From Bugula neritina (lineage: Eukaryota; Animalia; Bryozoa): DNA of 64,000 nt. The position numbers and the translations under genes were made by a program. Of this stretch, positions 17,401 through 60,947 are shown piece by piece. The notes under the pieces were generated by a model. That model saw only the letters and a program-made list of their open reading frames with translations. It was not told the DNA's origin and did not search any database. Position 1 is the first letter of the stretch. The number at the start of each line of letters is the position of its first letter. The stretch spans positions 14,580,698 to 14,644,697 of the forward strand of contig OZ037765.1 in the NCBI GenBank assembly GCA_964035545.1, given 5' to 3'.

Positions 17401-20400
17401 ATAACGTTAGCAGCAGACAACCGTCAGCAGGAGAGGGACCGCGTCGTCTGTCCACGCGCCCTCCGGCGGGAACTGATCTGGGACACCCATGAGCAGGCTC
17501 ATTCTTGAGTCAGTCGGGTCATCAGGTGTCTGCGGCTGCATTGGTATTGGCCCAGAATGACCCGAGACGGCAATGCGAGGTCTGCCAAGCTAGCAAGCAT
17601 GGCCGCCCCACGGAAACCACTGGTTGACGCCGGCTATACGCTGGTCGACTGTGGCAAGTAGTGGCGGTAGACCTCGTTGGGCCTATGCCGTTATCCGCCA
17701 GAGGGAACACCTGAATACTGGTGCTCACGGACCACTTTACCCGGTGGGTAGATGCTCTGGCTATTCCAGACGCAACAGCCCCCCCGGTGGCCCGGGCCCT
17801 GGACCAAAATGTGTTCTGTTACCTCCGATTACCCGAGCAGATACATACGGACCAGGATGCCCAGTTTCAGTCCCAGCTTATGGGAGACCTCTGCCGGATA
17901 TGGGGGGTGAACCAGAGTCGGACCACCCCATATCACCCGCAAGGGAACGGAGTCGTCGAACGGAACAACAGGATGTTTGGTGACGCCCTCAGGAGCCTGC
18001 TCCTTGGTCGCGGTCAGGAAGAATGGGACATGGTGCTGCCGCAAATCATGCGGGCTCACCGCAGCATACCACACTCCACCACGCAGGAGACACTAAACTT
18101 TCTGATGCTAGGCCAGGAGACACGGGTTCCGGAACAACTGACCTACCATGTCCCCGCCCCCGAGTCACCGGTACCTGAGTACGTGGGGGTTTGATAGAAA
18201 TCATGGGCAAAGCTCATGATGCACTGCGTGCCCAGCAGTGGCAGACCCGCACGGAAGACTCAGAAGAGCCCCCGTTGTACCAGGTGGGAGACTGGGTCTG
18301 GATGGTGAGCTACCGGAGGCGACGCGGACAGTCGGCTAAACTCCAGCCCAAGGTCGTTGGTCCCTACTGCGTAGTGGAGGTGCTGCCCAACCACACGTAC
18401 CGTGTGGAGCGCTCTGGACAGGTCTCAGTCCAGAGCGATCAGCGCCTGAAACCTTACCATGCCAGCCCAGACGCAGTGGGTCAGGCTCCACCCCTCCTGG
18501 AGCCCAACCGCCAGCCCAACCATCGGAGAAGGACCACCCAACCCCGAGAGGTGGAAATTGTCGTCCCAAGGGAGGCGGATCAGGAACAGGCCGCCCTGCT
18601 GGAACAGCTTGAACAGCAGCAAAGGCAGGAACGGCGGCAGCAGCAGTAGGCTCCAGGGCCACCACCCCTCTCGGGGGAGGACATCCCCACCCGTATTACG
18701 GGTGAAGGCAGGGACCCCCTACATTGGCAACTGAAGAGCCACTGGCACTACAAGTGCCTGCCCATCCATTGAGGAGTCAAAGAGATAGGAAACCACCCAG
18801 ATATCTGACGGACTATCACGTGGGACACATGGAGATGTCCCCACAGAGGAGTGGTACATCCAGTACGGGTAAAAACTTCGAGTCTCAGTTGCAGAATAGT
18901 CCTGACAGTACAGGACTTCTCCAAAAGCAACAGCCCCCAGACCAGCACAGTCACCTGGACAACAGATACCCAGCTCTTTCGGGTAATGTTGGCCAAGGTA
19001 GGTGGCGATACCCCATACCCCTGACCGACTTGGAACTCCCTCAAGAGAAGGAAGATGGGGCCACGTCCCTGCTACCTGCCCAGCTGATTGGAGATGGCGC
19101 TACCGCAGCCACCATCCAGCCTCTACGGGTAGCACTGGCAAGACTGGGCAAAGAGCCTGGAGCACCAGTCAGCCAAATAGGAGAGAAGACTCAGCCGCCC
19201 CACCCACAATTGCCCCGTCACCGGCAAAATGTGGCACCTCCTTACCGCGAGTGCGTCCTGGATAGTGCAATCCAGGCCTGGTCCAGTATCCTTGACCGAT
19301 GTACTGAAGAGATAGAAAGCCTGGTGCACCACCTCCAATGACCAAACCGGACAATTAGGAGCCGCCGGCATTAGCCACCCGAACTTTATATATTGTGGGT
19401 ACTACTACCATGTTATATTATCGTGATACGCGTGATTAATCATAATACTTTTCTGGTAACCGCATATTTTTCTACTTTTGTGAAATAATTGTTCTGTTAT
19501 CAAAAAGGGATGCTTTTCGATGGGGGGAGAATGTAATGGATTCTCATCCTCTATTGTCCTGAAATAACAGCTTGCAGCAGTATTATAAATACTGTTGCGT
19601 ATCGTTCTTAATTCTGTAATTATAGTTAAGTAAGCTAGCTTGCTAATGCCTAAGTATGGTAATTACTGTTAAAGCTTTCAACATAATGTAATTTTACTGA
19701 AATACGCATTCTGAAGTTATGTAATATTTCTTGTACTAATGTTGCGTTCTTTTGTAATAGATTTTCATCCTCTATTATTCTGAAATAACTGCGTGCGTCA
19801 GTATTATAAATACTGTTGCGTATCGTTTTTAATGCTGTAATTGGTGTAGTAGACTTTTGCATGTACTTATTTCCTGTTGCCCGAGATCGGCATTTCGGCT
19901 TTCCGAAATGCCGAAATACCGATAGTCGGCAGTTCAGGCTACCGAAAGCCCCGAAATGCGAAAGTCGGTGTTTCGAACTGCCGAAATGCCGAAGGTCGGC
20001 GTTTCGGACCTCCGATCTTGGCAACAAAGGAAAAACCCTATCTCTTGCTGTATATAAAAGCCAGCGAGCTCCAGTGTAGTTCAGTCTACTACTGGAGCTC
20101 ACTGGCAGAGGACCTTCAATATTATATTATTCGACTCAATAAAGATTTCTTCAACTGTACAACACATCTTGTTCTCTCTGACAAAGAGTATGTTCAGGCA
20201 CTAGTTCTATTCAACCCACAAAATTATCACAATAACATGCAATAATCATTGAAATCCCCTCCTAACAAGAATTTTCCAAAATACTGTTATGTAATTTCAT
20301 TACATGTAAATTACATATACATTGAAATCGAAAATGTTAGGCTACCCTTATATTTATAGATTTATAAATGTATTATGTAGCTATATATGGAAAGATATGC

Positions 20401-23400
20401 CAGCTCAATTGGGAATTTCACCTTTTCTTAAGTAAATGGTAGGGCAATGTGCTTCATGCTGCAATCAGCTATGGCAAAAATAATTTTAGCTTTACTTTTA
20501 AACTATAAAAGACTGGTTTTAGTTGGAAAAGTTCAGAGCGAAGATTATGGTTAAAAGTCTAAATTGGTCTTTGAAACTAAAAAAGTTTTGACAGCCTTGA
20601 TTTTCATCAATTTAGCAAAATAATCTTTCTCGAGTCGAAAAACTGAAAACAGCATTAAAAAATCAACTGTCCTCATCAAGTTATATTTTGTCCACCATAA
20701 AGAACTCAACTGCAATACCTACCTGATGGAGCCCAATAAACTTCAAAATGCAAATTAATTCCATACACCGCTGCTCTATCAAACTAATGTACATCTTAAG
20801 ATTTCTTGAAGTCATGTCTCTTTCAATTGTAGGTGCTTTAGATAACACCATACTGGAATTTATTTTTTTAAATAGTGAGCGGATGCTAACACAGATCACA
20901 GCTAGCAATGCTTCTAACTCATCACATCTCTGTTTAGCCGAACCAACTTCAGTCTTAAGCTGAGCTCTGGCAGCCTGTAAAATATTTGGTGACATACAAG
21001 TGCAGCTATAGCTTCACATATAGCATTATGACTAGCAAAAGAAACAATCTGTTTCATTACACCATAACTGTAGTAAAATTAAAATAGTAAAAACATTTTT
21101 TTGAAAAAGGAAAAACAACATTTTGCAGTTTTCGAAAAGCTTTAATGTAATCTGCTTCAGTGTATGCTATTCAAAACTTTAGTCATGCAAAATCAAATTA
21201 GTAATTTCAACTTGGTTACAAACATACCTCAATCTGGTTCACAGTATGGTTGGTTCCTGTCTGAATTTTTTCATCTTCCATCATTGCAATCTTAATTCCA
21301 TTTTTAATCTTTTGAATGTTTTCATAAAGTTTCTCTACATTGTGATTCAGTTCACTAACATAATCAAACCTGTAAAGTAAACATGATATTTGGCAATCAA
21401 TTTTACCTAATAACATTATAGTATTGCTATATAGCCATAACACAAAATATTGTAGTAGATTTTGACAGTTATCATCACCTTATGTTGTGGAAAGTTCTAG
21501 AATGCATTAACTATTTTATATTTTATAATTTATCATTATAGTTGAACTCTTGGCCGAAGTTTGGTGGTTCTAAACTTCGGGGGCCTGAAATTCGAGGTGC
21601 TCGATTTGGCACGCCCAAAGTTTGAGGTACCCGATTTGGCCCGAAATCAGATAGAACATTCTAGAATTCGATGCACCCGGACAAATTCTAAAGTATGAAA
21701 GGACGAGCTTGCCAGCAATAGTTAATATAAAATTATCACAATATTATAGAAATGTGCTATTGCAGATTTGAACAATTATGCTGAGTAGCTAATGTATAAT
21801 TATAAAAAATCCTGATGGAACAACCTGGATAGATAAAATATATAGGTCATTTAAAGTTTTACAGCCAACAAAAACCGGACCGATAACTAAAATTAAGGTT
21901 TCATGCTTGAGCGAGTCTGACCTCAAAATACATGGACCTATTCTAAATGGAAAATAATGTGTGATAAATACAACAACTATATTATAGTTTTATTAATCTA
22001 ATTATAGAAAACAGGAATGTTGGAGGGAGCAGAACAAGTAACAAACATCACCAATATAAATAATCATAACTCATTTTGTTATGGATGTGATTAAAACGGG
22101 TGGCCACCTGGTGTCGCAGTCAGTGATACCCATTTTAGTCATAGGGGGGGGGGGGGGGGGTTGACTAAAATGGGTGTCGCAAAAATTTTCCTTTTATTCT
22201 CAGATTTTTAGACAGCCGTGACTGCTAAAATTATTATTAAATAAATCTTCAGTGAATAATGACCATTTCAAAATAGTTTAAACCAAAAACATAAATAAAT
22301 AATGATAAAATTGAAATAGTGTTGTGAATTTATGCTTCACTGCAATCAATGGGTTTATTTATTAAAAGCCATTTCACCAGATTTGCTAATTAATAAGAGT
22401 TTATTTACTGCTAATAACACACTAATAAATGTATAACAACCAACACAAACTGTTACATAATAGAGAGCTAACAGTACACAACTTTACACTAGCATTATCA
22501 AGTCCTCTCTGCCGGCTACGCTGCCTAACTAGCTTCCACTACGCGTTTTGTAGCTCCGCCTACTAATTAATTGTTAGTCATGTCTCATTGGCCAACACGG
22601 TGGTGATATGATGCTGGCTGCATCATGTAACTGTCCGAGTGAGAAGTATCCTTTCAATATAACTGATGCATTATTAAAAACCCTTACATCCTCCCCTCCT
22701 ATCGAAAGGTATACGCTGTTAAACTAGTATAAAATTTGAAAAATATACAAAATGATAATAAAAATATAGTAACGGCAAGAATATAATACAGCAATAAGCA
22801 TATAACACACAATCTATTTACACCATCACCGAGAAGTAAGTATAAATACTGCCAGTCCAAGTAAGGGAACGAGGGGGGGAGAAGAGAAGAAAGAGAAGAG
22901 GCGAGTCATCAGGCTATTTTGTTAGTCAGTTCAGCCGCCGCCCGTTTCTGTTTTTTGCAGAGACGGGCCATACGCCTCTGTAAATTCCTTACATCTGTCA
23001 AAAGGGACTGGTCAGGCATAGTGTTTTCGTCAGCCGCATCACGAGTACTTCTCCTCTTTTTCTTTTGCTGGCCCGGTAAGGTGGAGGTAGTTGTAGTAGG
23101 GGGGGGGGGTGAGAGTCTCCTTCTACTGTTCGGTCCGAGCGAGATACCAGAACTCGGAGGGGTTGTGTCATTATCTCTGGAGTCGGTGTCGTCAAGGTTG
23201 TTTCCATAGTTGGGGGGTCAGCATCAAAGTCACTATCCACAGTCGGTCGCGTCGGGGGAATTGGTTTAGTAGCATCTGTCGTCGGTCTGGTACAGTCACA
23301 TGAGGTAGTATAAGGTCTCGGAATTCAGTGTAGGAGTCGGCGTCAACTTCATATAAATGTCCAGTGTAACAGTTTTGGGTTCTTTGATGTCGAAGTATGG

Positions 23401-26400
23401 CGTCCCTGTAAAAGTGGTGGACTCTACAGGGACAGAAAGTTACAGTAAAGTGCTGGGGTACGTGTATTTTAAGTCGCTTCATGGTGGAGAAAGTCCGTCT
23501 GCATTCGCTACATCGTCTATTGTCGTCAGTTCCTATGATTGCTTGTATGAGTGTTCTCGTCCGTCGGGTAGTCCAAGTCGTACGCCGTAGCAACGCCTGT
23601 GGCAATTCAAGGGGTCGGTCAATCGTCTCAGTCAGTCCAGTCATGTCTAATTGTAGTGCAGTCTGTTCAGTCGGTGGGTCCGACACTGTCGACAAGTGCA
23701 TGTTGGACAACATGTCCATCCCTGCTTCTGACATATTGTCCCAGGTTGCAGTAGGTGAATCTAACAGAGCTTGTATCTCTGCAGATACAGATTCAGTCTC
23801 ACCTGCAATAGAGTATTTACATTCACCGTCTAACTTTGAATCAAACTTTATAAATGGGATTCCCCTCTTCAGTGCGATACTGACAACTGAATCACACAGT
23901 GTATTAACCCACTAATCGTAAAATCAGCTGAGTTGACTGTCTCATTCTAGTCACCTATACATCGCCCGACAGAAGTTTCAACTTTATCATTATGACAAAG
24001 TGAGACTGCTAACGGCTACCAGAATAAATTTCAGTTAAGAAATAGAATTTCTAGTAGACTTACCCCCCAAAACAGTTGCTGCATCAGCCATGATGTTTGC
24101 TGTCTGTTTGTATAGGGCTCGTAGTAGCCAAATTTATTCACTGCAAAAAGACGTGCTGTCTGTTAGCTGGTTGAATTTGAAAAGAGCACTCACAGCTAGA
24201 GTATTATGCAACACCTTATACGCTATTGAGTTGGCTTCGCTCTGCTGACCCTTCGGCTGACCTATTCTATCGCCACTAGGCAGCACACTATCAATTTCCT
24301 CGTCCCCCAGACTTTTTTTGCACCTGTCGACATGCTATAAAATACTGTGCATGTTGATCAAGTCGCACAAGAAGTCTCTCAAATAAGATGGTGGCGCCCT
24401 AATACGTTGGCTACGTTCCAACGGTACAGAGGAATTTGCTGCTGCTGGTGACTCTACCATCTCGGTTGGTGCCGCCAGCACGGGAGGGGGGTAACCAATA
24501 CGGGTGGTTCCCTCTCAGCTGCCTCTTCCTCATGAATTTGAGGAATTTCCATCTCATCCAGGGCGACAGGTGTGTCGGCCGGCTTCACTGGTGGTGGGGC
24601 CGGCTCGGACTGGTCTTCCGGTGTGTCGGCCGCCCCCTCCTGGGGTGGGGGTGGCCGGAGCGATTCAGGCGACGCGTCGGCCGCTCCCTTCTGACCTGGC
24701 AGTATCTCCTCCATTTCTCTGTATGCCATGCCTCGCCCCCTCATGGGAGGGCGTCGAGCAGGCTCTAAGAGTAGAGGTGCTTGTCCTGCCACGTCAGGGC
24801 TTGCCCAGTGTGGTTTCAAACGTGCTTCGTTCTGGATCGACACCTGTCTAGAACGTTCCACTTTATAGGTGTGATTTGGCATCACCTCAATCACGCAAGA
24901 AGGACCCACAAACTTCGGCTGCAACTTAGCCGCCTGTCCGTGCCGCTGGCGATGACTAGTTATCCAGACCCAGTCTCCCACCTTGTACAAGGGGGAGGGG
25001 GTTGTCAGGGTCACCATTTCTGACCTGCCACTGCTGCTCACGTAGCACCTTGTGAGCCGTCCTCATGCGTTTCGCGAGCTCGTCCACATAATCATGGACA
25101 CTGCTCTCTGGAGCTGGAATGTGGTGAGTTACGTGCTCAGGAACCCTTGTTTCTCTCTCCAGCATGAGAAAATTAGGGGCCTCCAGTGTACTGGAGTGAA
25201 GGGTACTACGGGAAGCTCGCATGATTTGCGGCAGTACCAAGTCTCACTCTTCCTGGCTCTTACTGATAAGCAGGCTTCTCAGTGAGTCCCCTAGCATTCA
25301 GTTGTTTCTCTCCACAACCACATTCCCTTGCGGGTGATGCGGGGTCGTTCGACTCTGGTTTACCACCCACGTTTTACAGAGATCGCTCATAAGTTGCGAC
25401 TGAAACTGGGCGCCTTGATCAGAGTGGATTTGTTCCGTTAAGCCAAAATAACAAAACACCCGCTGATCCAAGGCTCTGGCCACCGTAGGGGCCGACGCAT
25501 CTGGAATGGCCAGCGCATCAGCCCACCGCGTGAAATGGTCAGTTAACACCAGTATCCAGTTATTACCTCTCACTGTCGTGGGCATGGGGCCTACCAGATC
25601 TACAGCGACTACCTGCCATGGACGACCGGCATGGAGGCGGCGCCGACACAGCTCCTTGACGTTCCTGAGCAGCGTGGGGTTTGCATGAAAGTTGTTAACA
25701 GCTTTACTAGGGGCTTCGGACCGAAGTTGTCATTCCTCCCAGTTGTATATACCTCCTTTCTCCACCTGTTCTTCAACGTTCGAGCGAGGGGGTCCACCAT
25801 CCCCACGCTCGATATTTTTGGCATTGCTTACACCCATCTGCCTGGCCGCGGCTCAGTCTGTCGGCATTACCGTGTTTCTTACCGAGTCGGTTTTCGATCC
25901 GATAAGAAAACTCTGCCAGGATTTCAAGCCAGCCCGCTACTTGACTAAATGGCTCAGCTTGTCGACGCAGCCATATCAAAGACGCATGGTCCGTTCGTAA
26001 TCTGAACATGCGTCCATACAGGTATGGTCTAAAGTATTTCACCGCCTTGACAACTGCCAGGAGCTCTCTCCTGGTGGTACAGTAGTTTTTCTCAGGCGCC
26101 GACAGAGCCTTACTATAGTAAGCTACCACCGCCTCGCGGCCATCTTGGACCTGAGGCAGCACCGCCCCCACATTATGGTTACTGGCATCAGTATCCAAAA
26201 TGTACTCTTTCGCCGCAACAGGGTACGCCAAGATGGGCGCCTCTACAAAGCGATCCTTGAGGTGGTCAAATGCCTGCTGTTCCATCTGCTTCCACTGCTA
26301 TCGCACCCCTTCTGCTGTCAGCCGGTTTAGTGGCTGCGCAATCGTGCGAAGTCTGGTATGTACTGACGATAGTACCTTACCAGCCCCAGGAACGCCCGCA

Positions 26401-29400
26401 ATTCAGGGAGGTCGACAGGGACAGCCCAGTCCCTCACAGCCCGTATCTTCTCGGGGTCGGTGGCGACCCCGCCTCGACCAACTACATGGCCTAGGTACTT
26501 AACCTCTTGCTGTAACAATGTGCACTTAGAGGGCTTGAGCTTCAGACTAGCAGCTCGAAGTCTGTCAAACACCTCCCTGAGTCGACTGACGTGAGTGTCG
26601 AAGTCGGGGGAGAGGACAATGACATCATCGAGATAGATAAGCAAGGTCTTCCAGTGTAACCCACTTGGGACCTGCTCCATGAGTCGCTGGAAGGTGGCCG
26701 GCGCAGACGTAAGTCTGAATGGCAACACCTTTCATTTCTAGAGCCCATCCCGCGTAATAAACGAGGCCTTGTTTTGTGCATCAGGACTTAGGGGCACCTG
26801 CCAATACCCGCTTAGCAAATCAAACGTACTGAAGAACTTGCTATCAGCTAAGGCATCTAGCGACTGATCGATCCTAGGAAGAGGGTAAGCGTCCTAGATG
26901 GTCATGCTGTTCAGTTTGCGATAACCCACGCAAAAAACCTCCAGCTCCCATCTTTTTTCCGAACCAGGACAACTGGAGAGCTCCAAGCACTATGTGCTGG
27001 CTCAATCAGGTCCCGGTTCAAAAGGTCTTGCACCTGTCGGCTCACTTCTTTTTCCTTCTCATGACCTAACCAGCCGGGTCGACTGCCTGATAGGCACCGT
27101 CCCAGCTGCCAGGGGTATCTCATGACAAACAGCCCTCGCTAGGCCAATGTCATGATCGCCGCAACTGAACACATCTTTGTACTCAGAGAGTAGCTGTGCC
27201 ACTAACAGGCGTTCCCGCTTACTCTTACAGCCATCACAGGCATCCCCGTACAAATCTACCAAGTGTTCAGGCACCGGCCCCCTGCTGTCCCTAGTGTGTA
27301 CTCATCGAGCCTCGTCCGCTGTTTCCAGGGCCAGCCCAACATCCTCCTGTATGGAGTGGAATTTCCCCCCTAGTGACCCAGCTGGCAATTTTACTGGCTC
27401 CGTGAAAGGATTCACACACTGGACCAGGAACTCTCCCCACTCATCCAATCTATTCAGACTGTTAGCGAGCTGGACGCTCCCCAGCGCACCTTCCACCACT
27501 CCTAAATCGGAGATTTCTCTACAGTTCACTCTGCAGCAAACTGTAGCCCGAGAGCGCTCAGGTACGGTACAGTGCTGTACCAACTGCACTCCCCCCACCA
27601 AGGGCCGGCCAAATCGGTCGACACAGGCCAGCTCACGTCCGGCCATCACCACCGTTGACTTATTAAAGTCAATGTGGCACCTGTGTCGATTCAAAATGGC
27701 ATGCCCAAGATGGCGTCCTCCTTGAGTTGACTGACGATGAAGCTCTCGTTGATCATCTGATCACGGCATCTACCAGTCAACTCTATCACACCATGAAGAG
27801 GAATACATGACCCGTCCGCCAACGTGCCATGTTCCCCTTCATATGGCTCCAGGTTTGCCCGGTCTCTAGCAGTGAGTGTGTCAAACAGACGCCGGCTCAG
27901 AAGATTTGTTGTACACCCAGCATCCAATAGGAAGGTGGCAGCTTTTCCGGCAAGTTTACTGGGGAGGAAATAACTGCTCCCATACGCCTGGGCGCTTACT
28001 GAGCGAATCGTCTCTAGAGGTGACACCTTGTGTGCATGGAGTTGGGAATGCACCTGTGCTTTTCGGTTACGAGGGGGGGTCATCGACGTTTCGTGGGCAA
28101 GCAGGTTACATCTCGGTCTTGCTCACACACGGGCGGCCGAGTGAATCCTCAGTCTTGCGCTCGTGTGGGCACCCAAGGGAAATTCCTGTCTTGCTCCCAT
28201 TCGTTGTACATCCCCTCATCAGGCAAACCTTCAAGGCGGTTTTTGAGTGCCCAAACCGAAGGTTTTGGCGGGCTTTGCGGCCTACTAACTCTCCTTGAGG
28301 CTTGCCACTCTGGCGAGGGCAGCCTTCTTACCCGATAGGGTTTGGTCCTTGACAGGTTAAACCGAGGCCCACGGTCGGCGGAGTCTACTGTGGGCCGTGT
28401 CGATTTAACTGCCTCCCTCTACCGTGGGGGCAGCTTCGTATGAAGTGCCCACTACTACCACAACCCCAACATACGGGGTCCCGCCTGCTACCGACAGCTG
28501 ACGGCAACCTAGTGGGTCGCTCGACTGTCAACTGTTGGCGTAGTTGCCTGATCTCGGCTAACAGATCTCGAACCAAGCTTGTGGTCAAGCTAGTCAGCTG
28601 CCGCCGTGGCGACATGTACAGCTGTCTTGGCCGACAACGTCGTCGGCCTTGACTTGCTGTACTGTCGCCCCAGGCCGGCACGTACTGTCGGCTTGAAAAT
28701 AAGCATTCCCAAGCCTGAGAGCTCGCTCCATAGTTTTAACCTCAGCTACCAGGAGGTAGTGCTTCAGCCAGCTCTAGGTTGTTAATAGACTGGAGGAAAG
28801 CATCTAGTGCCAGACTCTGCTGACCATTCGCAGGCAAGTCACCATAGGCGACTTGTGCTAGCCGCTCAACTACGGTAGCGTGCTCCCTCAAGGTAGTCTT
28901 AGGATTTCTCCTAAGCTTTTGGAGCTGCACACGAGCATCCCAAGCAGTAAGCCCAAACCGAGCTCCTAATGCCTCAAAGATGTCGCCGACGTCCTGACCA
29001 ATTCCATAGGGTTTGGCCATCCCTGTCAGTCACAACCGTAGCTGAATCAGAGTAACCCTGACAGGCCATCGACAGATGGCTGCTACATCACTGAACTCAG
29101 TAATAAATTGCTCCACGTCTTCTTCTCCAGAAAAGATGGGAGCCGCAAGTGGTACCTGTCCATAGGCAGCGCTGGGCCGCCTATGCCGTCCTCCATAGCT
29201 ACTGGTTCTTGACGGGGTATGTCCTCTTCGTCGGCCATTTTTTACTCCCTAGCTAGGAGCATTTGCAATAAATAAATCCCACCGCTGCCACCACTGTTGT
29301 GAATTTATGCTTCACTGCAATCAATGGGTTTATTTATTGAAAGCCACTTCACCAGGTTTGCTAATTAATAAGAGTTTATTTACTGCTAATAACACACGAA

Positions 29401-32400
29401 TAAATGTATAACAACTAACACAAACCGTTACATAATAAAGAGCTATCAGTACACAACTTGCTAGCATTATCAAGTCCTCTCTGCCGGCTACGCTGCCTAA
29501 CTAGCTTCCACTATGCGTTTTGTAGCTCCGCCTACTAATTAATTGTTAGTCATGTCTCATTGGCCAACACGGTGGTACCATCCTGATGACATGATGCTGG
29601 CTGCCAGGGTTAGGGTCAGTTACATGTGAATGTAATTAATTACAATTACATCAAAATTTGTCAATTACAATTATAATTACAGATAAAAAGTAATGTAATT
29701 AATTACAATTACATGACAATGTAATTAATTACAATTACAATTACTTTCGTTCTTACAAGCAATAAATAGAAGTTATGCAAGCTCACTTATAGTGTCCAAA
29801 TACCAGGGGCAATTTTGACAGGGGTGAACCTCTTTTGTTCTCAGCAGTGATACTATACTACCTAGACCAGTGATTCCCAACCTTTTTCAAACTATTCCCC
29901 CTTTCATAAATGTTGACTATTAATTCCCCCTTATTCAAAGATCGAAAAGATTTGATGACCCACTGAATGAGAATATATGATACAATGCAATATATTTTGT
30001 TCTATTATATTTGCATATAATATAATTATCATAATAGTAATATTATCATTATTTTTATGTTATAAAACACAGAGCAGTCTAATTATTAATGTTATGGCTT
30101 CAGTTGATGCTTTTGTGCCAGCTTGGTTAAGTCTGACTTTGTTTATTACCAGGCCCATCTTAAGTCACTCTGCGGGTAAAAGCAGTTTCTCTTCTCTTTG
30201 AATTGATTAGAATCCTACTTCACACAGATAGGCAGAGTTTTGGTTCTGGATGGCACCAAAACTCTGCTTTGTCAGCTATGTGTGGAAAGAGTTTGCTTGT
30301 TGAAATCCAGAAATACTTTAGGTAAAAATGGCGCATGTAAAAATGGCACACTGATGTTAAATTTTTCCAAACTCAAACAACCAACCCTTGAACCCAACCC
30401 CCCCACCTTCTAACTCAAACCCCCACCCTCAAACTCCAGAACCTCAAGCACAAACCTAAAATCCTCACCTCAAACCCTTTTTTCAAACTCCAAACCCCCA
30501 CCCCAACATTGAAAACATGTGCCATTTTTACCTACTTTTTTATTTGTGCCATTACTACCTGTACCGTTTCTAGTGGACACCACCCACAATCCATCAATTG
30601 GAATAGATTTCAAATCATCCTTCATTGCTGAATTGTGAACCAACTCAATGAAATCCTCATATGATTCCTCTAAAAACCTTTCAACAAAGCGTTGCAATGG
30701 GTCACATTTCAAGTTAAGAATCTAGCTCTTTCTTTTTGGGAGGTAGCTTAGAGAAGTACTGTTAAAACTTCATTAACAGTTCAGAGATGAGAACAGGGAG
30801 AACAGGTAGTGTCCGGTAAAAATGGCACAGGTAAAAGTAGCATTATTGACACAAATGGAAAATTAGATAAATATTAATGGCACATTTTCAACTTTACCTG
30901 TGCCATTTTTGCCTAAAATCGGAACAGGTTTCCTGCATTTTCAAGTTCAGATTATTTAGTGTAGAAAATATTATATGCACGAAGTATGTAGTATACAATT
31001 TATAGAAATTGACTTGCATGACTGCTAAAAATCGGCCTGTTGGTTTTTGCAAATTTTTTGACCTCCATTGGAAATAGCGCAGAGAACAGTTAGGGTAAAG
31101 TAATTAATAGACACATTCATGTAGAAGTAAACTGAGATTGCAGAATATGGTTTGGTTAAATAGATGAACTAAGATGAAGATTTATAGATATGCATATATA
31201 CTTTTGTAATGTGCAAGAGCTCAAAAAGCTTTCAACAAAGTGCGTGAAATTTTCAAAATCCAAATTCCCCTCCCTGAAATGTCCAAATTCCCCCCTAGGG
31301 GCATGGTAGAAAAAGTAGGAAATTTTTAAGATTTTAAAGTTTGAAGTAATTGACAAATAATTATAAAGTAATTGTAAAAATCAATTACATTTTTATACAT
31401 CAATTACAAATTACATTCAATTACTTGAAAAAATGTAATTAATTACAAATTACAATTACCCCAACCCTGCTGGCTGCATCATGTAACTGTCCGAGTGAGA
31501 AGTATCCTTTCAATATAACTAATGCAATATTAAAAACCTTTACAATAGTTATAATGTAGTAACTTGTGGGTTATTGAATGAAATCAGGCAGAGAACATAA
31601 CTCCTTGTTATAGAAGAGACAAGAGAGGGTGTTGAAGTTGTGTGTGCTGAACTTTATTGTAGTCTTGATCCTTCCAGTTCGAGCTTCAGTCCTCAAGTGA
31701 CTGAAGCTCGAAAATGGGCTTCCTTTTATACTAGCCAGACAAAGGACTTCTAGAACTTTCCACCGGTGACTAGTCAATATTCCGAAGGCCCATTGCTCCG
31801 AAGATCCATTGGCCCGAAGGTGCATTAGTCTGAAAATTAGTAGGGATATAGTATTATATCACTGAGCATATCATAAATTTCACTCACAATCTTGCTATAT
31901 TATTGCTAGCTGTGGATGATATGCGTGTGGCCTACTTGTAATTTTTTAGCCCGAGATTACGCTATGACCCTACCTCAATTAAATGCTGCCTTATCTATCA
32001 ACATTCTATTGTGGCTGGTCCATAAACCAAGTACACAGCAAGCTATTCACTAGCCTGTCAGCTAACAAGCTCGTAACTAGTAATTTATGCATAAGTATCT
32101 CCTCATCTCTAAGTGTTGAAGCATGAAGTGTTGTGCAAGGGTGATTTAATAAGTATTTTTATTTCACAGTTCATATAAAAATGACAGCTATAAGCAATGA
32201 ACTCAAAATATCCAGTTCAATGGCTATAGTGACTGCAACTCTATTCTAGCTACAGTCAGTCAGCTTATATAAGCCTTTCATATGTTGACTATTAACTGAA
32301 AAACTTAAGTAAAAATATTAAAGCCAAGCAAACATTTTGGGTCTACTGTATGGTATTCATGATAAGCTTGGTAAAAGTTTACCTCATAGTTTACATTTAA

Positions 32401-35400
32401 AGTTGGTGTCAAAAAATTGTTGGTATTGAATGAAATAGCAAATTTCTGGCTTGGCAGTTATTTATTTGATATCACATTTAATCTCCAACATTATCTATAA
32501 GCTGCTAAACTGCACTTTTCTATGCTACTATTCTTAATATCAGTAAATACAAGCATTGAAGACAAAAAATAATAAACATTTTGGACGCTACTCTAAAATT
32601 AAATAACCAAAGCTGCACACCAAACAACTCCACAAGATATGTAAACAAGGGCAACATCATTAGTAGATAAGAGTTCAGGCCCGCCAAGTAAAACCTAGCC
32701 TAAACTAAAATTTAAAAACCATGTTGTAGATCTTCCTGTTGCTCAAAGCAACTTTTTGAAATGTTCAATAAATAATTTTAATTCTCATAATAATTCTACT
32801 AATTTTTGGACTAATGCATCTTCGGAACAATGGGCCTTCGGAACAATGGGCCTTCGGAATATTGCTCCGTCCCTCCCTTCCACCGACCGAAGTTCGGTAG
32901 GGTATGGCAACATTCGTCATGTTGGTAACTAACATTCCGTCTGTCGGCATCCACTTGCCGAACTCGGTCCAACTGCTGGTTTACGTGAATCAGCAAAAAT
33001 GAACCCAACCAAGTGTATGCGTATTGTAACTTGTAATGGGGGGGGGGGGGGGAAGGGATTACCTATTCACAATGCTAAAAGCTTAACAATAGACATAGTA
33101 TTTAAGGTATTAGAAAGTTACGCCACAGACTTAGCTATAACTACAGTATTTAGAAAAATGGCCATATGTAATGTGTCAAGGGGGATAACTCTGATATTTA
33201 CCACACACACTTCTTATCAGAAAGTACACTTTCTAATACAAAAATAGAGGGTATATATAACAAACATAAAACAACGGGCCAAGGGGCATGGAGACTAGCA
33301 TAAGAATACAGGGCTAGGGCTTCTGTGAATACAGAAAAATAATAAAAAAAAACTTGGTTCAGGTTCAGGTTCTAGAGAAAAATGATATAATACTGATAAA
33401 AAAAATTTTTGGGTAAAGAAAAATAAAATAACCTTGACTGGTAGGAATTTATGAGCACAAAAACAGAGTATAAAGGTAGAAATCCAAAAAAAACTGGTAC
33501 TGGTATAAAAATTTAATTTTCACCTAATTGTATTGTTATTATTGTGATCATAGACATGCTAACTTATAAAACATATACTTTAAACTAGTAAAAACGCTGG
33601 GAACAACATTGAAAAAACAAAAATGTTCACAAAGTTTAAAAAAAGTTGAACATTTTCACGACACCCATTTCAGTTAAAACACTCCAGAATGACTAAAATG
33701 AGTGTCACAAGAATTTTTGCTTTATTTTTAGCATTGAGGACATATATAATTTTACAATTGACATCATTAAACTGCTTTTGCATTTTTACACCAACTCAGC
33801 TAATTAAAAAGTTATGAAACTGGGACACAAGAATAAATAAGATTAAAGTCATTGTGAAAATTCTTGGGGTCAAAAACTAGGGGATATCGCAAAGAACTCA
33901 ATACATTGATTTTAATTTAATTTTATTGGTATTTTTCAGCTTCTAGACATGCTGACTCATGAATCATATACTTTAAACTAGTGAAAATACTGATAGCAAT
34001 ATTAACGAACAAAAATGTTCACAAATCGTGGAAATAAAACTAAAATTTTTTGCGAAACCCATTTTCGTCAAAACTCCCCCAAATGACTAAAATGTGATTT
34101 GCTCATCTCCTCCCCCTTCCGCATTCCAGCCACAAACTTCAGTCACCTTAGCTACAATTCATAGAAAAAAAGTCTACCCGAAATTTTGTAGCACATGTCA
34201 CTAAAGTTTTTTCTGATGAAAGCTGGCCTGTGAAGTGGAAATAGAAAAAACATTTTTAGTTCTATAAAACAGTAATGATAATGGCACTATAGAAATGAGT
34301 GATGTGCATTTGATTTTGCCTCTGCCTGCTATCTGTGGTGGCACAAACTGTACAGTAAAACATGAATTTTGCTGTAGATCTGAAAGAGTATTTTTATTTA
34401 CTTGTGTATATTAAATACTCGTAAATAAAGATCAGATGCAACCAAATCAGCAAAGTCTCAATATATTTGTTGTGCCCCACCCAGTGGCCCATTGTACCCC
34501 GGTACCGGGGCACAATGGGCCATTTTTTTTGTCATGAAAATTTCATTATTCTGAAAGTTGTAAAAGAGATAGAAACAACCAACTGATACCTCACCTACCT
34601 ATAATAGACAACTGGTGTAGCATTTAGACTAGAGACTATTGAACTAGTAACCTGAAAAACAGACGAATGAGAGCAAAAAATTCAAAATTTGGCCCATTGT
34701 GCCCCGTTACTCCTATATAAATTGACAAATACTGCAATCAACAACAAAAAGACTATCTCGGTATAAAACTATAATATTCACCTAGAAAAGTTTTCTTCAT
34801 CATTTACTGTGAATTCTTTGACCACCTTCTCCAGGAACTCATGACCAGTAACTGCTTTAACATTGTAAAACAACTCTTCATATTTTTGAATGTGCTCTTC
34901 TTCTTCTTTCACCGCTTTTTCTTTTACACCTGTATCGAATTAGCAACTAGATAAATGTAAAGATAGATTACATATATACACAATAACTGGTTTATACATA
35001 TATAATACCAGCTATTACAAATAGCAACATTAATGCATGCCGATAACAGTCAAACCAAAATCTTTTAACCCACATTTCTCGAAACTACAAATAACATTGT
35101 AGAAAATTTTGACAGCTCAATTCCTAATAATTTTTGTTAGACTTGTTAAATATGGGTCTTATTTTTATATAATGAATTGTGATTAGTCTGAGGTGAACAG
35201 ACGCACTCATTTTAGCTTGTTTTTCCACTTCATCGGCCTTGTGACCTAATCTTTCATGCTCCTTTACACTCATAAACCTCTTGAGTTCACCATCATGGGC
35301 AATCATTCTCTGGAGAACCTTAATCTCAGAGTTATGCATCATCTCATCTTTACTAGACCTTTCATTTAATGCCTTCAATTTCCTCAGAAATTCTAATCTA

Positions 35401-45640: not shown

Positions 45641-46820
45641 GTAGTGTGGTAAATTATGGTTTATCGGAAAGGCAACTCTTCTCTCTAATTACTCTGCTAC
45701 TTTAATGTGCATCCTCTAGTATAAGCTAAGTTACGCGTGGCCTACTCTCTACATATTATGCTACGCTCAAGACAATGAATAGGATCAACCAATAAGAGGA
45801 GCTTATGACCATACGATCACAAGCAGCTTGCATTAGTAGTTAGTAGCTAATGCTTGGGATGGAGCTAATGCTTTAGGGATGGAGCTAATTATGTAAGCTC
45901 ATTAGCAGCGGGCATCCACAGCACACAGTTAACTAGTAGCACTTGAATAGTTAGGTTGTGTGCTTTATTGTTGTACAGTTATGTAATTCCTTTCATTTTA
46001 TGTAGTTTGCTTTACTTGTGTATTATTCGTATAAATAAACTCTATTCATACTCTACGCCGGCAGTTGTTGGCTTAGTCTTAAATACCCGTATAATTGGTG
46101 ATAGCATAAAATCACAATAGTGGTGGCAGCGGTGGGATTAATTTAAGGCTAATGCTCTTGGCCAAGGAGTAAAAGAGTATGGCCAGCGACGACAAAGGAG
46201 ACATCTCTCATCTAGAACAAATTGAACCGGAAGCTGTAGAGGATGTCATAGGCGGCCCAGCGCTGCCTATGGACAGGTATCATTTGCAGGCTCCTGCCTT
46301 TTGTGGAGAAAAAGATGTAGAGCAATTTATCGCTGAGTTCAGCGACGTGGTAGCCATTTGTTGATGGGATCGGCCAAACTTTATGGTATCGGCCAGGATG
46401 TCAGCAGCATCTTCGAGGCGTTGAGAGCCTGATTAGGGCTCACCGCTCGAGATGCGCGACCAACTCTAAGGGCTTAAGAGAGATCCTAAGACTGCTTTAC
46501 AAGAGCACACGACCGTAGTGGAACGGCTGGCACAAGTCGCTTATGTCGACCTACCTGCAGAAGGCCGACGGAATTTGGTGCTAGAGGCGTTTCTCTAATC
46601 TATCAACAACATCGGCTTGAAAAGGCACTTGCTGGTAGCCAAAGTTGATACGATGAAAGGGCCCTTTGGCATGGAAATGTCTATTTCCAAGCCGATAGCG
46701 CGTGTCAGCCTGGTGTGAACGCGCAGCAAGTAGAAGCCGTCGGCGGCGGCAGCTGAAGAGGTGACCGGCTTAACCACGAGCCTGGTTCAGGAGCTGCTGG
46801 CCAAAATTAGGCGCCTGAGG

Positions 46821-47316
46821 CACTGTTGGGGTTATTGTAATAGGTTGTAATTAATTACATTTTTTCAAGTAAATGAATGTAATTTGTAATTGATGTATAA
46901 AAATGTAATTGTACTTGTGATTGTAACTAATTACATCGCTAATGTAATTGAATTTTACAATTACTTTATAATTGCATAACAATTACTTAAAATTTTTAAA
47001 TCTTATAAAATTCATATTTTTCCTGCCTTGCCTACTGTTAAATAAAAAGTTCAGAATATTTTAATATCATATTCATCACCCTATTTGTTACTGTTGAAAA
47101 CAAGGAAGGTTTTCCATCATCAAAATTGCCTTGGGTAGTTGGACCCCCCCCTCCAAAAATGAGATTATATAACTTTTATTTATCTCCTGTGACAAAAGGA
47201 ATTGTAAGTAATTACATTTATTTTAACTGTAATTATAATTGTAAATGTCATTGACAAAATTTCATGTAATTGTAATTGTGATTAATTACATTTATATGTG
47301 ATTGTCCCCAACCCCG
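46821..47316. mobile_element. hAT MITE (same family as 29605-31469) inserted in gag of D
   Basis: GTAATT arrays, decayed TIR, TSD GCCTGAGG/GTCTGAGG. Confidence 0.8.
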
Positions 47317-55924: not shown

Positions 55925-58900
55925 CTACCCCCTGCGAATCAGAATGCGTCCGAACGAGCGGTCACCGATGAGGCCCCCTGCGGCCACCAGTCCTATGTTG
56001 GGGGTGTGGCGGTCGAGGACACCTCCGCACAGAATGTTCCCAGAACAGGCGGGAGTTAAACTTCCACGGCCTGCGGACGTCTCCGCCTCTCGCGAGCCGA
56101 GAATGAAGGATACCAGGCTGACATACCGCCGGCCGTCTGTACAGACCCAACGTGGCAGGTACCACGTAAGACCAGTCTACCGTAAAGACGACCAGGTACC
56201 TTTACATTGCCACTCGCCAACCATTTCCACCGGTTACCTGAATATGAGCCGACTAACGGCGTCAATCTGGAAGTTCATGCGAGAAACCTCAACCCTCCAA
56301 GGCAAAGGCCTCGCTACAGGAAACCCCGTAAGCTACGGGCCGACCCCCCAGAGCCCTACCCTGGCAAAGCCGAGTACGCGAGAGGAGTGAAGGTAAAACC
56401 ACATGGAGGTAGCTATTTTCTATTGAGTAAAGTGGCTGGCAAGGCTGCCACTTTCCTGCTAGAGTCTGGTTGTACCACGAACCTCCTCAGCCGTCGAGTC
56501 TTCGAGGCTCTTTCCTCTCAGGATAGGGGCAAGGTACAACCGTACACCGGGGAGCATGGCACCCTTCTACAGTGTTGTAGAGCTCACAAGGCATGTTCGG
56601 GACCAGGTTATACAGGATACGTTTGTCATCAGTCAACTCGAAAAGGACGCTTTCCTCGGCATGCCATTCTTGAAACGACATTGGTGCCGCATTGATATCA
56701 GTAAATCTGCGGTACTGATGGCCGGGCGAGAGCTTATCTGTGTGGATAAGTTTGGCTGTCCTCTAGTGGGAGGTGTGCAGGTAGTACAGAACTGTACATT
56801 ACCGCTCCTAAGCTACTATTCACTGCAGAGTGAACAATAGCCAAATTTCCGGAATAGGGGTGGTGGAAAGTGCGCACGATAGAATCCAACTCGCCAGCAG
56901 TCTAAATCAACTGACTGCGCAAGGAGAGATTTTAGTGCAGTGCATCAACCCCTTTACGAAGTCGGTAAAGCTACCGGCAGGGTCCATGCTGGGCCGTTTC
57001 CACTCTGGCCAGGAAGAAGACGTGGGACCGTCGTTGGGAGATACGACGGAGTGTTCCCAACAGCGCCCGCCAAAAGGGCGGGGGAACGTCCCACCACACA
57101 TCAAGGAGTTGTATGAGACAGCCTGTGACGGCTGTGCGAGCAACGAGGAATGCCAGGCTATGGCGAAGTTGCTACGCAAATACAGCAATGTGTTCAGCAG
57201 CAGACTTTGCGGGGATAGCACAGCCGCTACACCGGCTCACCACAAAAGGGGTGTCATGGCAGTGGTCCCCGGTCGAACAACAGGCGTTCGACTGCCTCAA
57301 GAGTTGCCTGCTGACGGCACCCGCCTTGGCCTACCTAGACACCCCGACGCCCTGGCAATTCCAGATGCGTCGGCTCTGACAGTGGGCAGGGTGCTGGATC
57401 AACATGTATTCTGTTACTTCGATCTTCCAGAACAGATACATTCTGACCAAGGTGCTCAGTTCTAGTCTCAACTGATGAGCGATCTCTGCCGCCTCTGGGG
57501 AGTGAACCAGAGCAGGACTACTCCCTACCACCCCCAAGGTAACGGAGTGGTGGAGCGCAACAACCGGATGCTAGACGATGCGCTCCGGAGTCTACTCCTC
57601 GGGCGTAGTCAGGAGGAATTGGATACGGTGTTGCCGCAGGTCATGCGCGCTTACCGCAGCACACCACACACCAGCACTGATGAAACCCCCAATCTCCTGA
57701 TGCTCGGGAGTGAGACTCGGATCTCTGACCACCTTACCTACCATGTTCCCGAGCAAGATAGCTTAGTTCGCAAGTACGCCAGTGAACTGGTAAAGCGGAT
57801 GAGGGTCGCACACAAAATGCTGCAGGAAAGGCAGTGGCAGGTGCGGCATGAGGATTCCCAGAAACTACCCCTCTATCAGAAAGGAGATTGGGTGTGTATA
57901 GTCAATTACCGTAGGCGTCGCGGACAGGCAGCAAATTACAGCCTAAGTTCGTGGGACCCTACGTGGTAGTCGAGGCTATGCCCAACCATACCTACAAGAT
58001 CGAGCGCTCAGGACAGGTATCTATTCAGAATGAGGCTCGCTTGAAGCCGTATTGGGCTAGCCCAGATGTGGTGGGAGAAGCTCCCCGGTTGTTGGAGCCA
58101 AGAAGGCAGACAACAACGCGTGGGCGACGGCGGCATGGACTTGAGTATGAGGTGGTCATTCCGCGAGAGGAGGACTTGGCAAGAGACGAGCGACCGCTTC
58201 CACCAGCAGAAGTGCGTTCGCCGCCTTCTACGCCAGATGTGACACCATCACTTCCAGAACTCGAGCCGGATCCGGAAGTGCAAACCTCCACGGATGGAGG
58301 GGCTCCATCTGGGCAAAGCGAAGAAAAAACAGTTACTAGGGAACCGGAAGCGCCGCCAGTGGAACTTGATAGTTCACCGGTGAGTGCACCACTTCCCCTG
58401 GAACGAGGACAGCGTATTAAATAACCCCCAGCGTATTTGAAAGATTTCGTATGTGACTGCATTCAAAGCGGCACATATGCAAGTCTAGCGAGAAACAATA
58501 CGGGAAAACTATCGGCAAATTGTTGGAGTTGGGAGCCCTACGTAAATTTCAACTTTTACGAAGGCGGAGTAGGGGGCAAAATTAATGGGTTCGAGGTAAA
58601 AAGTTCAAGTCACGTGCAGCAAGCACGCTGCCCGGCTTTTTTCTACGCTGACATCGCCAAAGGCAGACGTGTTCTTCAAGCTCATACATAGATAGATACC
58701 TGAACGTTGAGTATGTCTCTAAATACCGAGTTCCAAGGTAAGCCTGCATAGGTCTTGTATTCCTATCTGTGAAAACAGGTCTGTTACCGGTTAATTCTGA
58801 ACTAATCAATCTGATTGAGTCAGAGTTACTGGGGACCGTGTCTAATGTGAATGGCGACGAGGACATAGTAATGGCCGACAATCTGTTAGATCTAGAGCTA

Positions 58901-59990
58901 GACACTATGATACTTAGTCAGTCTACAAGTTTGAACACGGTCTCTCAAGTGCCTTAAAAATGGATTTGTGACCCTCAGACGAGTAACAGTCGATTGTCAC
59001 GAGAATTATGTTGTAAAGGTCAACTTCGATCTAACAATAATTCTATTCTTTTAGACGACACTCGTTCCCCCACTCCTCAAGGGATGCCATCTTTAGAAAT
59101 GGTGTAGGATCCGGAGCCTAAACCACCTACTAGATCAAACCGCACACTGCCACATGCATTAGAAGCCAAGTTGTGCTGGACGACGCCAGCAACAGAGAGA
59201 GAGATCCGTCAATACCGGGGTGATGAAGATAGTACTATTTGTTGGCTCTGCCAGCAACACTTCACCACCCGCCGCAGGTTGCGGGTGCATCTCTCACAGC
59301 ACTTGGTTACCACCTTCTGTCCTTGTAGAGAGTTCAGCTACTACAGGGACTATATACTCCGACATCAAAGGACGATGAACTGCTTTCAGGGGAATCTATA
59401 GGATGTGGACAAGGCCTTCTATCCAGAGTTCTTCAACTTAATATGACCCTTTGTCTCTGACCCAGCTCGGCTAGAGTGTCTCTCCCAGAGATTTCCTGCT
59501 CCCCGACCCATCACCCCTGATCCTACCACGAAGCCTCCTAGATACCTGAAGCCACGCATGAAGAACTCTATTTCCAAACTCATACTCCCACCCCGATCTA
59601 TTCCTCGAGTCCTACTACAGCGTATTGAGACAAAGCCCTACAAACGTTCCTCTTCTCTTCCTCCTATAGATTGTAAGAGATGGTGGCAGTCTTCTTCCCC
59701 TCCCCATCCTTCATCACTGGCCCGTAACTTGCGGAAAGTAGAGCTCCGGACCAGCGAACTAGAACGGGAGGTCCATCGGCTTGCTTTCAAAATTTCAGAT
59801 GCAACAAGTGAGCTGTGGCCACTAAAGGAGTCGGTAGCTCAGCTCAAACGGGCTGCTAAAGACTAAGGTTGTGTCTCCTAGCCTGCTCGGTGTGACCTAT
59901 CTCATCCCCCATGACAACTTGGTGCTCAGTAAGTTATACAGGAGTATAACTGTGTATATATGGTGTGAAGACAGACAATTACCTAGGGTT
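55925..59990 (+). mobile_element. Gypsy element E: 5'-truncated, most of RT deleted, no LTRs seen
   Basis: CWGCGGRGHLRTEC knuckle at ~55995, protease, deletion junctions near 57200 and 57345, integrase 57345-58450. Confidence 0.9.
59055..59866 (+). pseudogene. Extra ORF3 of element E: double zinc finger plus coiled coil
   Basis: CWLC-x12-H-x3-H, CPC-x12-H-x5-C; a single frame with three in-frame stops; ends LARNLRKVELRTSELEREVHRLAFKISDATSELWPLKESVAQLKRAAKD. Confidence 0.8.
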
Positions 59991-60940: not shown

Positions 60941-60947
60941 CCAACAT

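What the first reader, a model, noticed from the sequence alone, without database searches (positions are those of the whole stretch)
22909..23734. Gypsy elements carry a conserved non-env third ORF: double zinc finger plus coiled coil
Seen: between the integrase tail and the PPT, element B encodes LPQAL..WTT..T..I..G..D..CSEC-x12-H-x3-H-FTVTF-CPC-x12-H-x5-C..LYEVD..Y.EF..LI.P..FP. Element E (59055-59866) has the same motifs in the same order, although the two DNAs are hard to align there. Both continue through a Pro/basic linker to a heptad-like coiled coil. No signal peptide or transmembrane segment is visible. Established: Metaviridae normally have only gag-pol, with env in some lineages; finger 1 fits the classical C2H2 consensus including the F and L positions. 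Inference: a selected accessory gene, perhaps a dimerising nucleic-acid-binding regulator, anti-silencing factor or targeting factor. I do not recognise it from described families, but cannot exclude prior description.
Basis: partly seen in the sequence, partly recalled or inferred. Interest (0 to 1): 0.9.

Follow-up and report, generated by a model that had tools for sequence, protein, structure and literature searches.

The report
Gypsy double-zinc-finger accessory gene
A lineage of animal Gypsy retrotransposons carries, after its integrase, an extra conserved gene of no catalogued family, with a predicted two-zinc domain and coiled coil; it is likely spliced and free-standing in the two copies here, joined in frame to the integrase in many relatives, and likely acts on chromatin to keep the element switched on.

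Summary
Real, selected, and larger than reported. Elements B and E share a gap-free 117-aa core (46% identity; dN/dS about 0.23, one pair). In both the gene likely has a tiny ATG exon and a phase-1 GT-AG intron; one public contig skips B's predicted 261-nt intron exactly and a database protein starts like the spliced form. Both copies are decayed. The family is large (298 clusters at 50% identity, a few of them ordinary C2H2 proteins), has no Pfam family and models as one compact two-zinc domain (pLDDT 95) with no whole-domain structural match. It is not only a third ORF: 27 of 82 related polyproteins that reach the integrase C-terminus carry it in the same reading frame, mostly behind an internal Met. 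Layout: acidic head, zinc core with basic helices, HP1-box-like motif in a disordered linker, basic patch, terminal coil. Best reading: a self-encoded chromatin factor that counters silencing (0.40); integration targeting is the main rival. No binding or expression was shown. Named relatives are bryozoan. Ten paper searches found no description; Repbase/Dfam/GyDB were not available. The scan noted a different Gypsy extra ORF before (not tested for kinship).

The parts
22320..22688 (-). Element B 3' LTR
   Evidence: 92% identical to 29295-29604 over 313 columns; begins TGT after the PPT
22689..22702 (-). Polypurine tract of B
   Evidence: sequence
22909..23802 (-). B accessory gene, exon 2 (decayed: two frameshifts, near 23.26 kb and 23.10 kb)
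   Evidence: family HMM hits in three successive frames; acceptor TTGCAG at 23803
22912..23004 (-). C-terminal coiled-coil-like helix
   Evidence: 45-residue helix, pLDDT above 90, in the model of intact homologue P0017; heptad score in 54 of 72 family tails vs about 3.6 expected
23050..23064 (-). Basic patch KKKRR, candidate nuclear localisation signal (inferred)
   Evidence: sequence; basic patch in homologues
23139..23165 (-). Short motif QPLRVLVSR, HP1-box-like (LxVxV) and similar to the MLV integrase tail motif; partner untested
   Evidence: identity between B-like and E-like subfamilies 0.42 vs 0.13 and 0.17 in flanks; disordered, not docked on the core, in the model
23255..23605 (-). 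Two-zinc core domain: helix, C2H2 finger, CxC-H-(C/H) finger, strand, helices
   Evidence: ligand conservation 0.93-0.99 in 120 domains; AlphaFold pLDDT 94.9, pTM 0.85
23606..23802 (-). Acidic, hydrophobic, disordered N-terminal segment (activation-domain-like, inferred)
   Evidence: head net charge -7 to -16 in 11 of 11 homologues picked; low pLDDT
23803..24063 (-). Predicted 261-nt phase-1 intron, GTAAGT...TTGCAG
   Evidence: consensus scan; one X1 contig skips exactly this stretch (table 5); 9 stops in 86 in-frame codons vs 0 in the next 182
24064..24091 (-). B exon 1 coding part: ATG, 9 codons plus 1 nt; in frame with the integrase
   Evidence: N-terminus of P0005 is colinear with exon 1 plus exon 2
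24335..25062 (-). Integrase C-terminal SH3-like domain and tail, ending at a stop
   Evidence: Pfam SH3_Tf2-1 and MLVIN_C below cut-off; translation
29276..29604 (-). B 5' LTR (5' end lost) and primer-binding site
   Evidence: tRNA-Leu identity of the PBS is recalled
58713..58737 (+). E predicted exon 1: ATG, 8 codons plus 1 nt; in frame with the integrase
58738..59054 (+). E predicted 317-nt phase-1 intron (GTAAGC; CTAAC branch-like site; TTCTTTTAG); splicing not observed
   Evidence: codon pairs compatible with YAG in 14 of 14 E-like proteins; no matching joint among 3 listed
59055..59866 (+). E exon 2: core 59147-59497, strict PxVxL motif IPRVLLQRIE 59600-59629, coil about 59717-59863; three in-frame stops
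18706..19341 (+). Element A: open frame running on from the integrase tail with the same motif (QPLRVALARL, 19117-19146) and a terminal helix but no zinc core
   Evidence: family HMM i-E 0.076 and 0.21 only, so weak

Best explanation
This is a conserved accessory gene of one Gypsy clade, likely spliced in B and E, whose product would be a nuclear chromatin protein that likely binds the element's own DNA through a basic two-zinc domain and would keep the element transcribed by countering HP1 silencing. Shown: conservation, purifying selection, position after the integrase, in-frame continuity with Pol in many relatives. Strongly indicated: splicing in B's family. Predicted: one compact two-zinc fold, a terminal coil, a free linear motif. 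Inferred: a subgenomic RNA and internal ATG give the free protein; the acidic head recruits activators; the PxVxL-like motif occupies the HP1 chromoshadow groove that host silencers use; in families with an open frame a copy also rides into the particle on Gag-Pol and reaches the new insertion with the integrase.
For: Selection: pS 0.72, pN 0.39, dN/dS about 0.23; shifted frames about 1.1. Splicing; of 18 G|GTAAG sites in the window 3 have a phase-1 ATG 22-31 nt upstream, two of them B and E at the matching place. Free product also in fused families: 23 of 24 linkers have a Met in one 42-aa window after the integrase tail, 0 of 2000 shuffles reach this, five control residues do not deviate. 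Nucleic-acid surface: R/K at 0.81, 0.71, 0.72 on the finger-1 helix, 0.76 and 0.69 on finger 2, mean net charge +5; best structural neighbours are tandem DNA-binding C2H2 pairs; sister elements L002 and L003 have a tandem C2H2-like pair plus an acidic tail in frame after the integrase. Motif: [PLC]xVx[LMVI] in 20 of 29 and 12 of 21 near-family tails vs 5.3 and 3.9 expected; E-type PRVxLxR matches the KAP1 HP1 box at P486, R487, V488, L490, R492 (PMC12126490, passages); LxVxL and CxVxL are accepted variants (PMC7465937, passages).
Against: No binding, expression or activation data. The motif patterns were chosen after seeing the sequences, and kin are not independent. Plain PxVxL-type patterns are not enriched in distant members (6 of 38 tails vs 7.1 expected; 9 of 27 fused vs 7.4); only the longer phi-x-phi-x-R-phi form is (7 of 36, 7 of 27). 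The B-type motif also resembles the MLV integrase tail that binds BET proteins. An HP1 box could as well recruit silencing. The acidic shift after the internal Met is not significant (13 of 23, p 0.14). The +6 helix position is hydrophobic, unlike base-reading fingers, so sequence-specific LTR binding is uncertain. Frames kept open from integrase to module argue that the fusion itself matters. The B joint rests on one contig with 27 letters on its short side at 80% likeness; no joint was seen for E, and several E-like ORFs run open through the predicted intron.
Confidence: 0.4

Rival explanations
1. Integration-targeting module: on the integrase tail (or bound to it in trans) the zinc domain and motif would tether the integration complex to HP1 heterochromatin or to BET-bound chromatin, as a chromodomain or the Ty5 and MLV tails do.
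For: In-frame after the integrase in 27 of 82 polyproteins, scattered over the RT tree; a single 2373-aa Gag-Pol-module ORF in 5 of 15 listed members of one young cluster. Ty5 uses a C-terminal hexapeptide that binds Sir4 (PMC7459421, passages); MLV tail NPLKIRLTR binds the BET ET domain (10.1101/2020.09.21.306696, passages). The window holds six Gypsy pieces within about 50 kb.
Against: In B and E stops and an intron separate it from pol; internal Met cluster; the acidic head is not needed for tethering; one window says nothing about insertion preference.
Confidence: 0.27
2. Self-limiting repressor: the protein would bind its own element and recruit HP1, capping copy number.
For: Same motif evidence; a zinc finger plus HP1 box is the logic of host silencers; stand-alone bryozoan genes carry the domain, as expected for domesticated repressors.
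Against: Acidic-hydrophobic heads; delivery on Pol would silence new copies at once; the family is abundant in runs X1-X3 (633, 1622 and 790 contigs laid on B's 3' end).
Confidence: 0.13
3. Rev-like RNA export or splicing regulator that would bind unspliced element RNA, like CERV of Cer1.
For: An element with an intron must export unspliced RNA; CERV is spliced, has a Cys loop, leucine zipper and NLS (PMC10309623, passages); conserved basic surface fits RNA as well.
Against: No export signal tested or evident; fusion to integrase and a chromatin-type motif are unexplained; fold neighbours are DNA-binding fingers (low Z).
Confidence: 0.12
4. A captured host zinc-finger gene or nested element carried passively.
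For: Annotated bryozoan genes contain the domain; element A and some relatives lack the core.
Against: dN/dS about 0.23; same place across elements 60-69% identical in RT; open frame with Pol; no second set of termini seen.
Confidence: 0.03

Closest known systems
Chromoviruses (Ty3/Gypsy with a chromodomain at the integrase C-terminus; recalled)
   Same: A chromatin-type module in frame after the integrase of a Gypsy polyprotein.
   Different: No chromodomain hit; a two-zinc domain, acidic head and coil instead; also made as a separate, likely spliced gene.
Ty5 targeting domain (Sir4) and MLV integrase tail (BET ET domain)
   Same: A short linear motif downstream of the integrase CTD; B-type PLRVxxxR resembles MLV PLKIRLTR.
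   Different: Here the motif sits hundreds of residues further on, beside a folded zinc domain; the basic residue between the hydrophobic ones is mostly absent; partner untested.
CERV of C. elegans Cer1 (PMC10309623)
   Same: Spliced non-env accessory protein of an animal LTR element with Cys motif, zipper and NLS.
   Different: CERV shares sequence with Gag and has a C4-type loop in a ring-forming domain; this gene lies 3' of pol with a C2H2-derived pair. No sequence comparison was possible.
Foamy virus Tas/Bel1 and plant VANC anti-silencers (recalled; VANC seen only in search listings)
   Same: Element-encoded factor that promotes its own element's transcription; Tas lies next to the 3' LTR and is spliced.
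   Different: Different element classes; no homology shown; function here inferred only.
Classical tandem C2H2 zinc fingers (Kaiso, SALL4, ZBTB)
   Same: Finger 1 matches by sequence; residues 27-83 superpose on finger pairs, Z up to 3.9, rmsd 2.8, 57 aligned.
   Different: Second finger is CxC-x12-H-(C/H), no TGEKP linker, extra N-terminal helix, a C-terminal strand and helices pack both into one predicted domain.

Membership tests
Ty3/Gypsy (Metaviridae) element | LTRs, PBS, PPT, order gag-PR-RT-RH-IN | tested here: met
   B: zinc knuckle, protease, RT, RNase H, rve, SH3 in order; LTRs, PBS, PPT
env-type ORF3 | Signal peptide, transmembrane segment, fusion-protein fold | tested here: not met
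   Model of P0017 shows a zinc core, disordered linkers and a charged amphipathic helix; no env Pfam hit; no dedicated signal or TM predictor was run
Chromovirus | Chromodomain at the integrase C-terminus | tested here: not met
   No chromodomain Pfam hit in 45 family proteins or 4 fused polyproteins
Classical C2H2 finger | C-x2-C-x12-H-x3-H with F and L core, beta-beta-alpha | tested here: met
   Finger 1: ligands 0.93-0.99, L 0.68, F 0.33; helix 47-57 in model; Pfam scores mostly below cut-off
Classical C2H2 array transcription factor | Independent fingers with canonical linker and variable base-reading positions | tested here: not met
   No canonical linker; +6 position hydrophobic, +2/+3/+5 basic and conserved
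HP1 chromoshadow ligands (PxVxL) | PxVxL or LxVxL/CxVxL pentapeptide in a disordered segment | tested here: met
   Near family; not enriched in plain form in distant members
HP1 chromoshadow ligands (PxVxL) | Binding to the chromoshadow dimer | not testable with these tools
BET ET-domain ligands (MLV tail type) | Alternating hydrophobic and basic strand (LKIRL) | tested here: inconclusive
   Hydrophobic spacing and flanking R match; the middle basic residue is mostly V, L or E
Any solved fold covering the whole domain | Significant full-length structural match | tested here: inconclusive
   Only partial finger-pair matches, Z at most 3.9
Rev-like exporters (CERV) | Binds and exports unspliced element RNA | not testable with these tools
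   Needs experiments

The most novel reading that the evidence does not exclude
An animal Gypsy clade encodes its own dual-use chromatin factor, a new two-zinc domain with an HP1-binding motif, made both as an integrase extension delivered with the particle and as a spliced free protein: it finds heterochromatin for insertion and then keeps the new copy active there, a metazoan counterpart of both chromovirus targeting and VANC-type anti-silencing, and a source of domesticated host genes in bryozoans.
Probability: 0.2. Interest if true: 0.9.

Novelty: new variant of a known kind. Interest (0 to 1): 0.72.

Why it matters
Animal Gypsy elements are taught as gag-pol with or without env; few non-env accessory genes are known. 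A widespread, selected, uncatalogued domain at the integrase end, switching between fusion and spliced gene, points to complex, retrovirus-like regulation in invertebrate retrotransposons. It names a specific protein and motif with which to test whether animal elements counter HP1/piRNA silencing or read heterochromatin, and gives a new zinc-binding fold to solve.

Tried and rejected
No whole genome is held, so no genome-wide copy count or dN/dS. The ORF3 alignment found no loci in metagenome contigs (428 pattern matches, 0 confirmed) or viral contigs (73, 0). The search for longer homologues found none among 5221 candidates; one search shows this was a false negative. No RNA holder listed. 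No joint for E's predicted intron among 3 joints listed. Foldseek: 0 matches at E 0.001 in PDB and in BFVD; VIA: none at Z 5 or more among 48161 chains. Atlas: low recognition score, top hits 0.91 to unnamed and C2H2 clusters, weak; a second query did not complete. Homodimer prediction for P0017 residues 60-299: no verdict, score 0.02. My first Met test (16 of 24) counted Met in its own score and was replaced. Of 80 RT-related loci, mostly about 50% identical, 33 reach the integrase CTD; only L003 hit the core HMM, L002 was seen by eye. The idea that the motif docks on the core as a strand was not supported. The idea that B's and E's integrase-to-ATG linkers are formerly coding is unresolved: 2 stops in 103 and 2 in 95 codons, but many 1-nt indels there among relatives (12 of 75 rows shown). 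Paper searches found no description of this gene; term look-ups in PMC8556966 (0 hits) and PMC2774666 (passages) gave none. No supplements were read; Repbase, Dfam, GyDB and subscription journals were not searched.
Full report
Observation. The window holds six Gypsy pieces. B (22320-29604, minus) has LTRs 92% alike, PBS, PPT and pol domains in Gypsy order. Between its integrase tail and PPT lies the reported ORF. Its only significant partner in the window is E 59147-59497: 117 aa, 46% identity, no gaps, E 4e-29. Both copies are decayed: B has two frameshifts, E three stops. For E I saw no PPT or 3' LTR.

Selection. Over 115 codon pairs, differences by codon position are 0.42, 0.40 and 0.59; pS 0.72, pN 0.39; corrected dN/dS about 0.23, rough because dS is near saturation and this is one pair. 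pN/pS is 0.54 (bootstrap 0.42-0.69). The two shifted sense frames give about 1.1; the antisense frame that shares third positions gives 0.60.

Gene structure. In B a G|GTAAGT donor at 24063 follows an ATG by 28 nt, and a TTGCAG acceptor lies at 23803; the 261-nt interval has 9 stops in 86 in-frame codons, the next 182 codons none. One contig of run X1 skips exactly this stretch with GT-AG ends; two further joints share the donor side. Caveats: one contig, 27 letters on the short side, 80% likeness, run type unknown. Independently, database protein P0005 begins with a segment colinear with exon 1 plus exon 2, while P0014, P0020, P0027 and P0108 differ upstream of the acceptor. E has the same design: ATG 58713, donor 58738, acceptor 59054, phase 1; the acceptor codon pair fits YAG in 14 of 14 E-like proteins. 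No E joint was seen, and several E-like ORFs are open through that intron, so an unspliced E product is possible. In both elements the ATG is in frame with the integrase.

Family. 49 close proteins among 62 candidates; a profile finds 298 clusters at E 0.001, 121 at 1e-10, best 150 listed. A core HMM hits 189 of 199 proteins held, 137 domains near complete. Of 45 proteins scanned only two had Pfam hits, both generic fingers, one a many-finger false positive. Over 120 domains the ligands are C 0.93, C 0.97, H 0.99, H 0.97, then C 0.97, C 0.99, H 0.94 and a loosely defined fourth C or H in 119. Of 30 clusters looked up, the three with a species name are bryozoan. The host of the window is not identified.

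Structure. With 99 aligned sequences AlphaFold gives one compact domain, pLDDT 94.9, pTM 0.85. Only the finger pair (residues 27-83) superposes on known structures, Z up to 3.9 on Kaiso. The full-length model of P0017 has a disordered head, the core, a disordered linker holding the motif, and a 45-residue terminal helix. A crude heptad score finds a coil in 54 of 72 tails against about 3.6 expected.

Not only a third ORF. Among the best 120 of 3832 Pol relatives, 82 reach the integrase CTD and 27 of these carry the core further down the same frame; four were confirmed as RT-RH-IN polyproteins. This is a lower bound: P0203 counted as negative, yet two members of its cluster carry the core, and one young cluster has the same 2373-aa Gag-Pol-module ORF in 5 of 15 listed members. 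These are gene-caller ORFs, not observed proteins. Fused cases are scattered over the RT tree; B- and E-type cores form one clade, support 0.90. In 23 of 24 fused linkers with a recognisable tail a Met falls within one 42-residue window; 0 of 2000 shuffles reach that, although the window width was chosen after looking and kin are not independent. More distant loci mostly lack the core (1 of 80), while L002 and L003 carry a simpler C2H2-like pair and acidic tail in frame. The simplest history is a finger pair gained at the end of pol, elaborated into one domain, expressed from an internal start, and cut loose with an intron in the B/E line (inference).

The motif. A short PLRVxxxR / PRVxLQRI segment is an island of conservation between subfamilies (0.42 against 0.13 and 0.17), survives in coreless element A (weak HMM score), and in distant members a related form often lies just before the core (7 of 36, expected 2.1; 7 of 27 fused, expected 0.4). 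It fits the HP1 box: KAP1 has P486, R487, V488, L490, E491, R492 (PMC12126490, passages), and LxVxL and CxVxL are accepted variants (PMC7465937, passages). It also resembles the MLV integrase tail that binds BET proteins (10.1101/2020.09.21.306696, passages). Plain PxVxL patterns are not enriched in distant members. Patterns were chosen post hoc.

Mechanism. Acidic head, basic zinc domain, chromatin-type motif, basic patch and coil describe a small transcription-factor-like protein. I commit to a self-encoded activator that counters HP1 silencing (0.40). Targeting of integration (0.27) explains the open frame with the integrase best, by analogy with Ty5 (PMC7459421, passages) and chromoviruses (recalled). 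Self-repression (0.13) and CERV-like RNA export (0.12; PMC10309623, passages) remain. The first two can both be true.

Novelty. Ten searches of the held library found no description; other non-env accessory genes exist (CERV; PMC11952523, seen as listing and abstract start only). Repbase, Dfam, GyDB, subscription journals and supplements were not seen, so prior notice there is possible. The scan's sequence look-up found nothing; a word look-up gave one note on a much longer Cys/His ORF in another Gypsy element, kinship untested. Verdict: a real, selected, uncatalogued module; new variant of a known kind; interest 0.72.

Noticed in passing
window 45766-54042: Element D has two 94%-identical LTRs and a B-like 5' half, but near 50.86 kb its integrase gives way to RT-RH-IN of a different Gypsy family (about 30% identical), which runs to the 3' LTR; no accessory gene. 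A chimera or a nested insertion with deletion.
   Followed up: partly
window 18706-19341: Element A keeps a coreless version (motif and terminal helix) in frame with the integrase tail; P0201, P0210 and P0238 also join the tail to a terminal coil without the zinc core.
   Followed up: partly
window 60245-60946 (-): 233-codon open frame that looks like the GIY-YIG endonuclease of a Penelope-like element (recalled motifs; no Pfam hit); a related piece at 55648-55789.
   Followed up: no
window 24141 and about 24225 (-): A second acceptor-like site with a branch-like CTAAC and a TATA-like word upstream of B's ATG: a third exon or an internal promoter is possible.
   Followed up: partly
window 23720-23722 (-): A second X1 joint shares B's donor side and lands near an AG about 81 nt further on, perhaps an alternative acceptor (one letter off).
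   Followed up: no
L002 5400-7630 and L003 5200-7390: Sister elements with the same PBS carry a tandem C2H2-like pair and an acidic tail in frame after the integrase, without the other parts of the core: a possible ancestral form.
   Followed up: partly
P0053/P0320, P0076, P0325, P0329: Bryozoan gene models (Watersipora subatra, Bugula neritina) with one or two cores and extra N-terminal sequence; possible domesticated genes, context unchecked.
   Followed up: partly
window 25729-25776 (-) and 56984-57346 (+): B lacks the stretch between RNase H and the integrase core; E lacks most of RT. Both are defective copies.
   Followed up: partly
window 31764-32870 and 38575-40286: A repeat family with 16-nt tandem units and inverted copies, probably a non-autonomous DNA element.
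   Followed up: no
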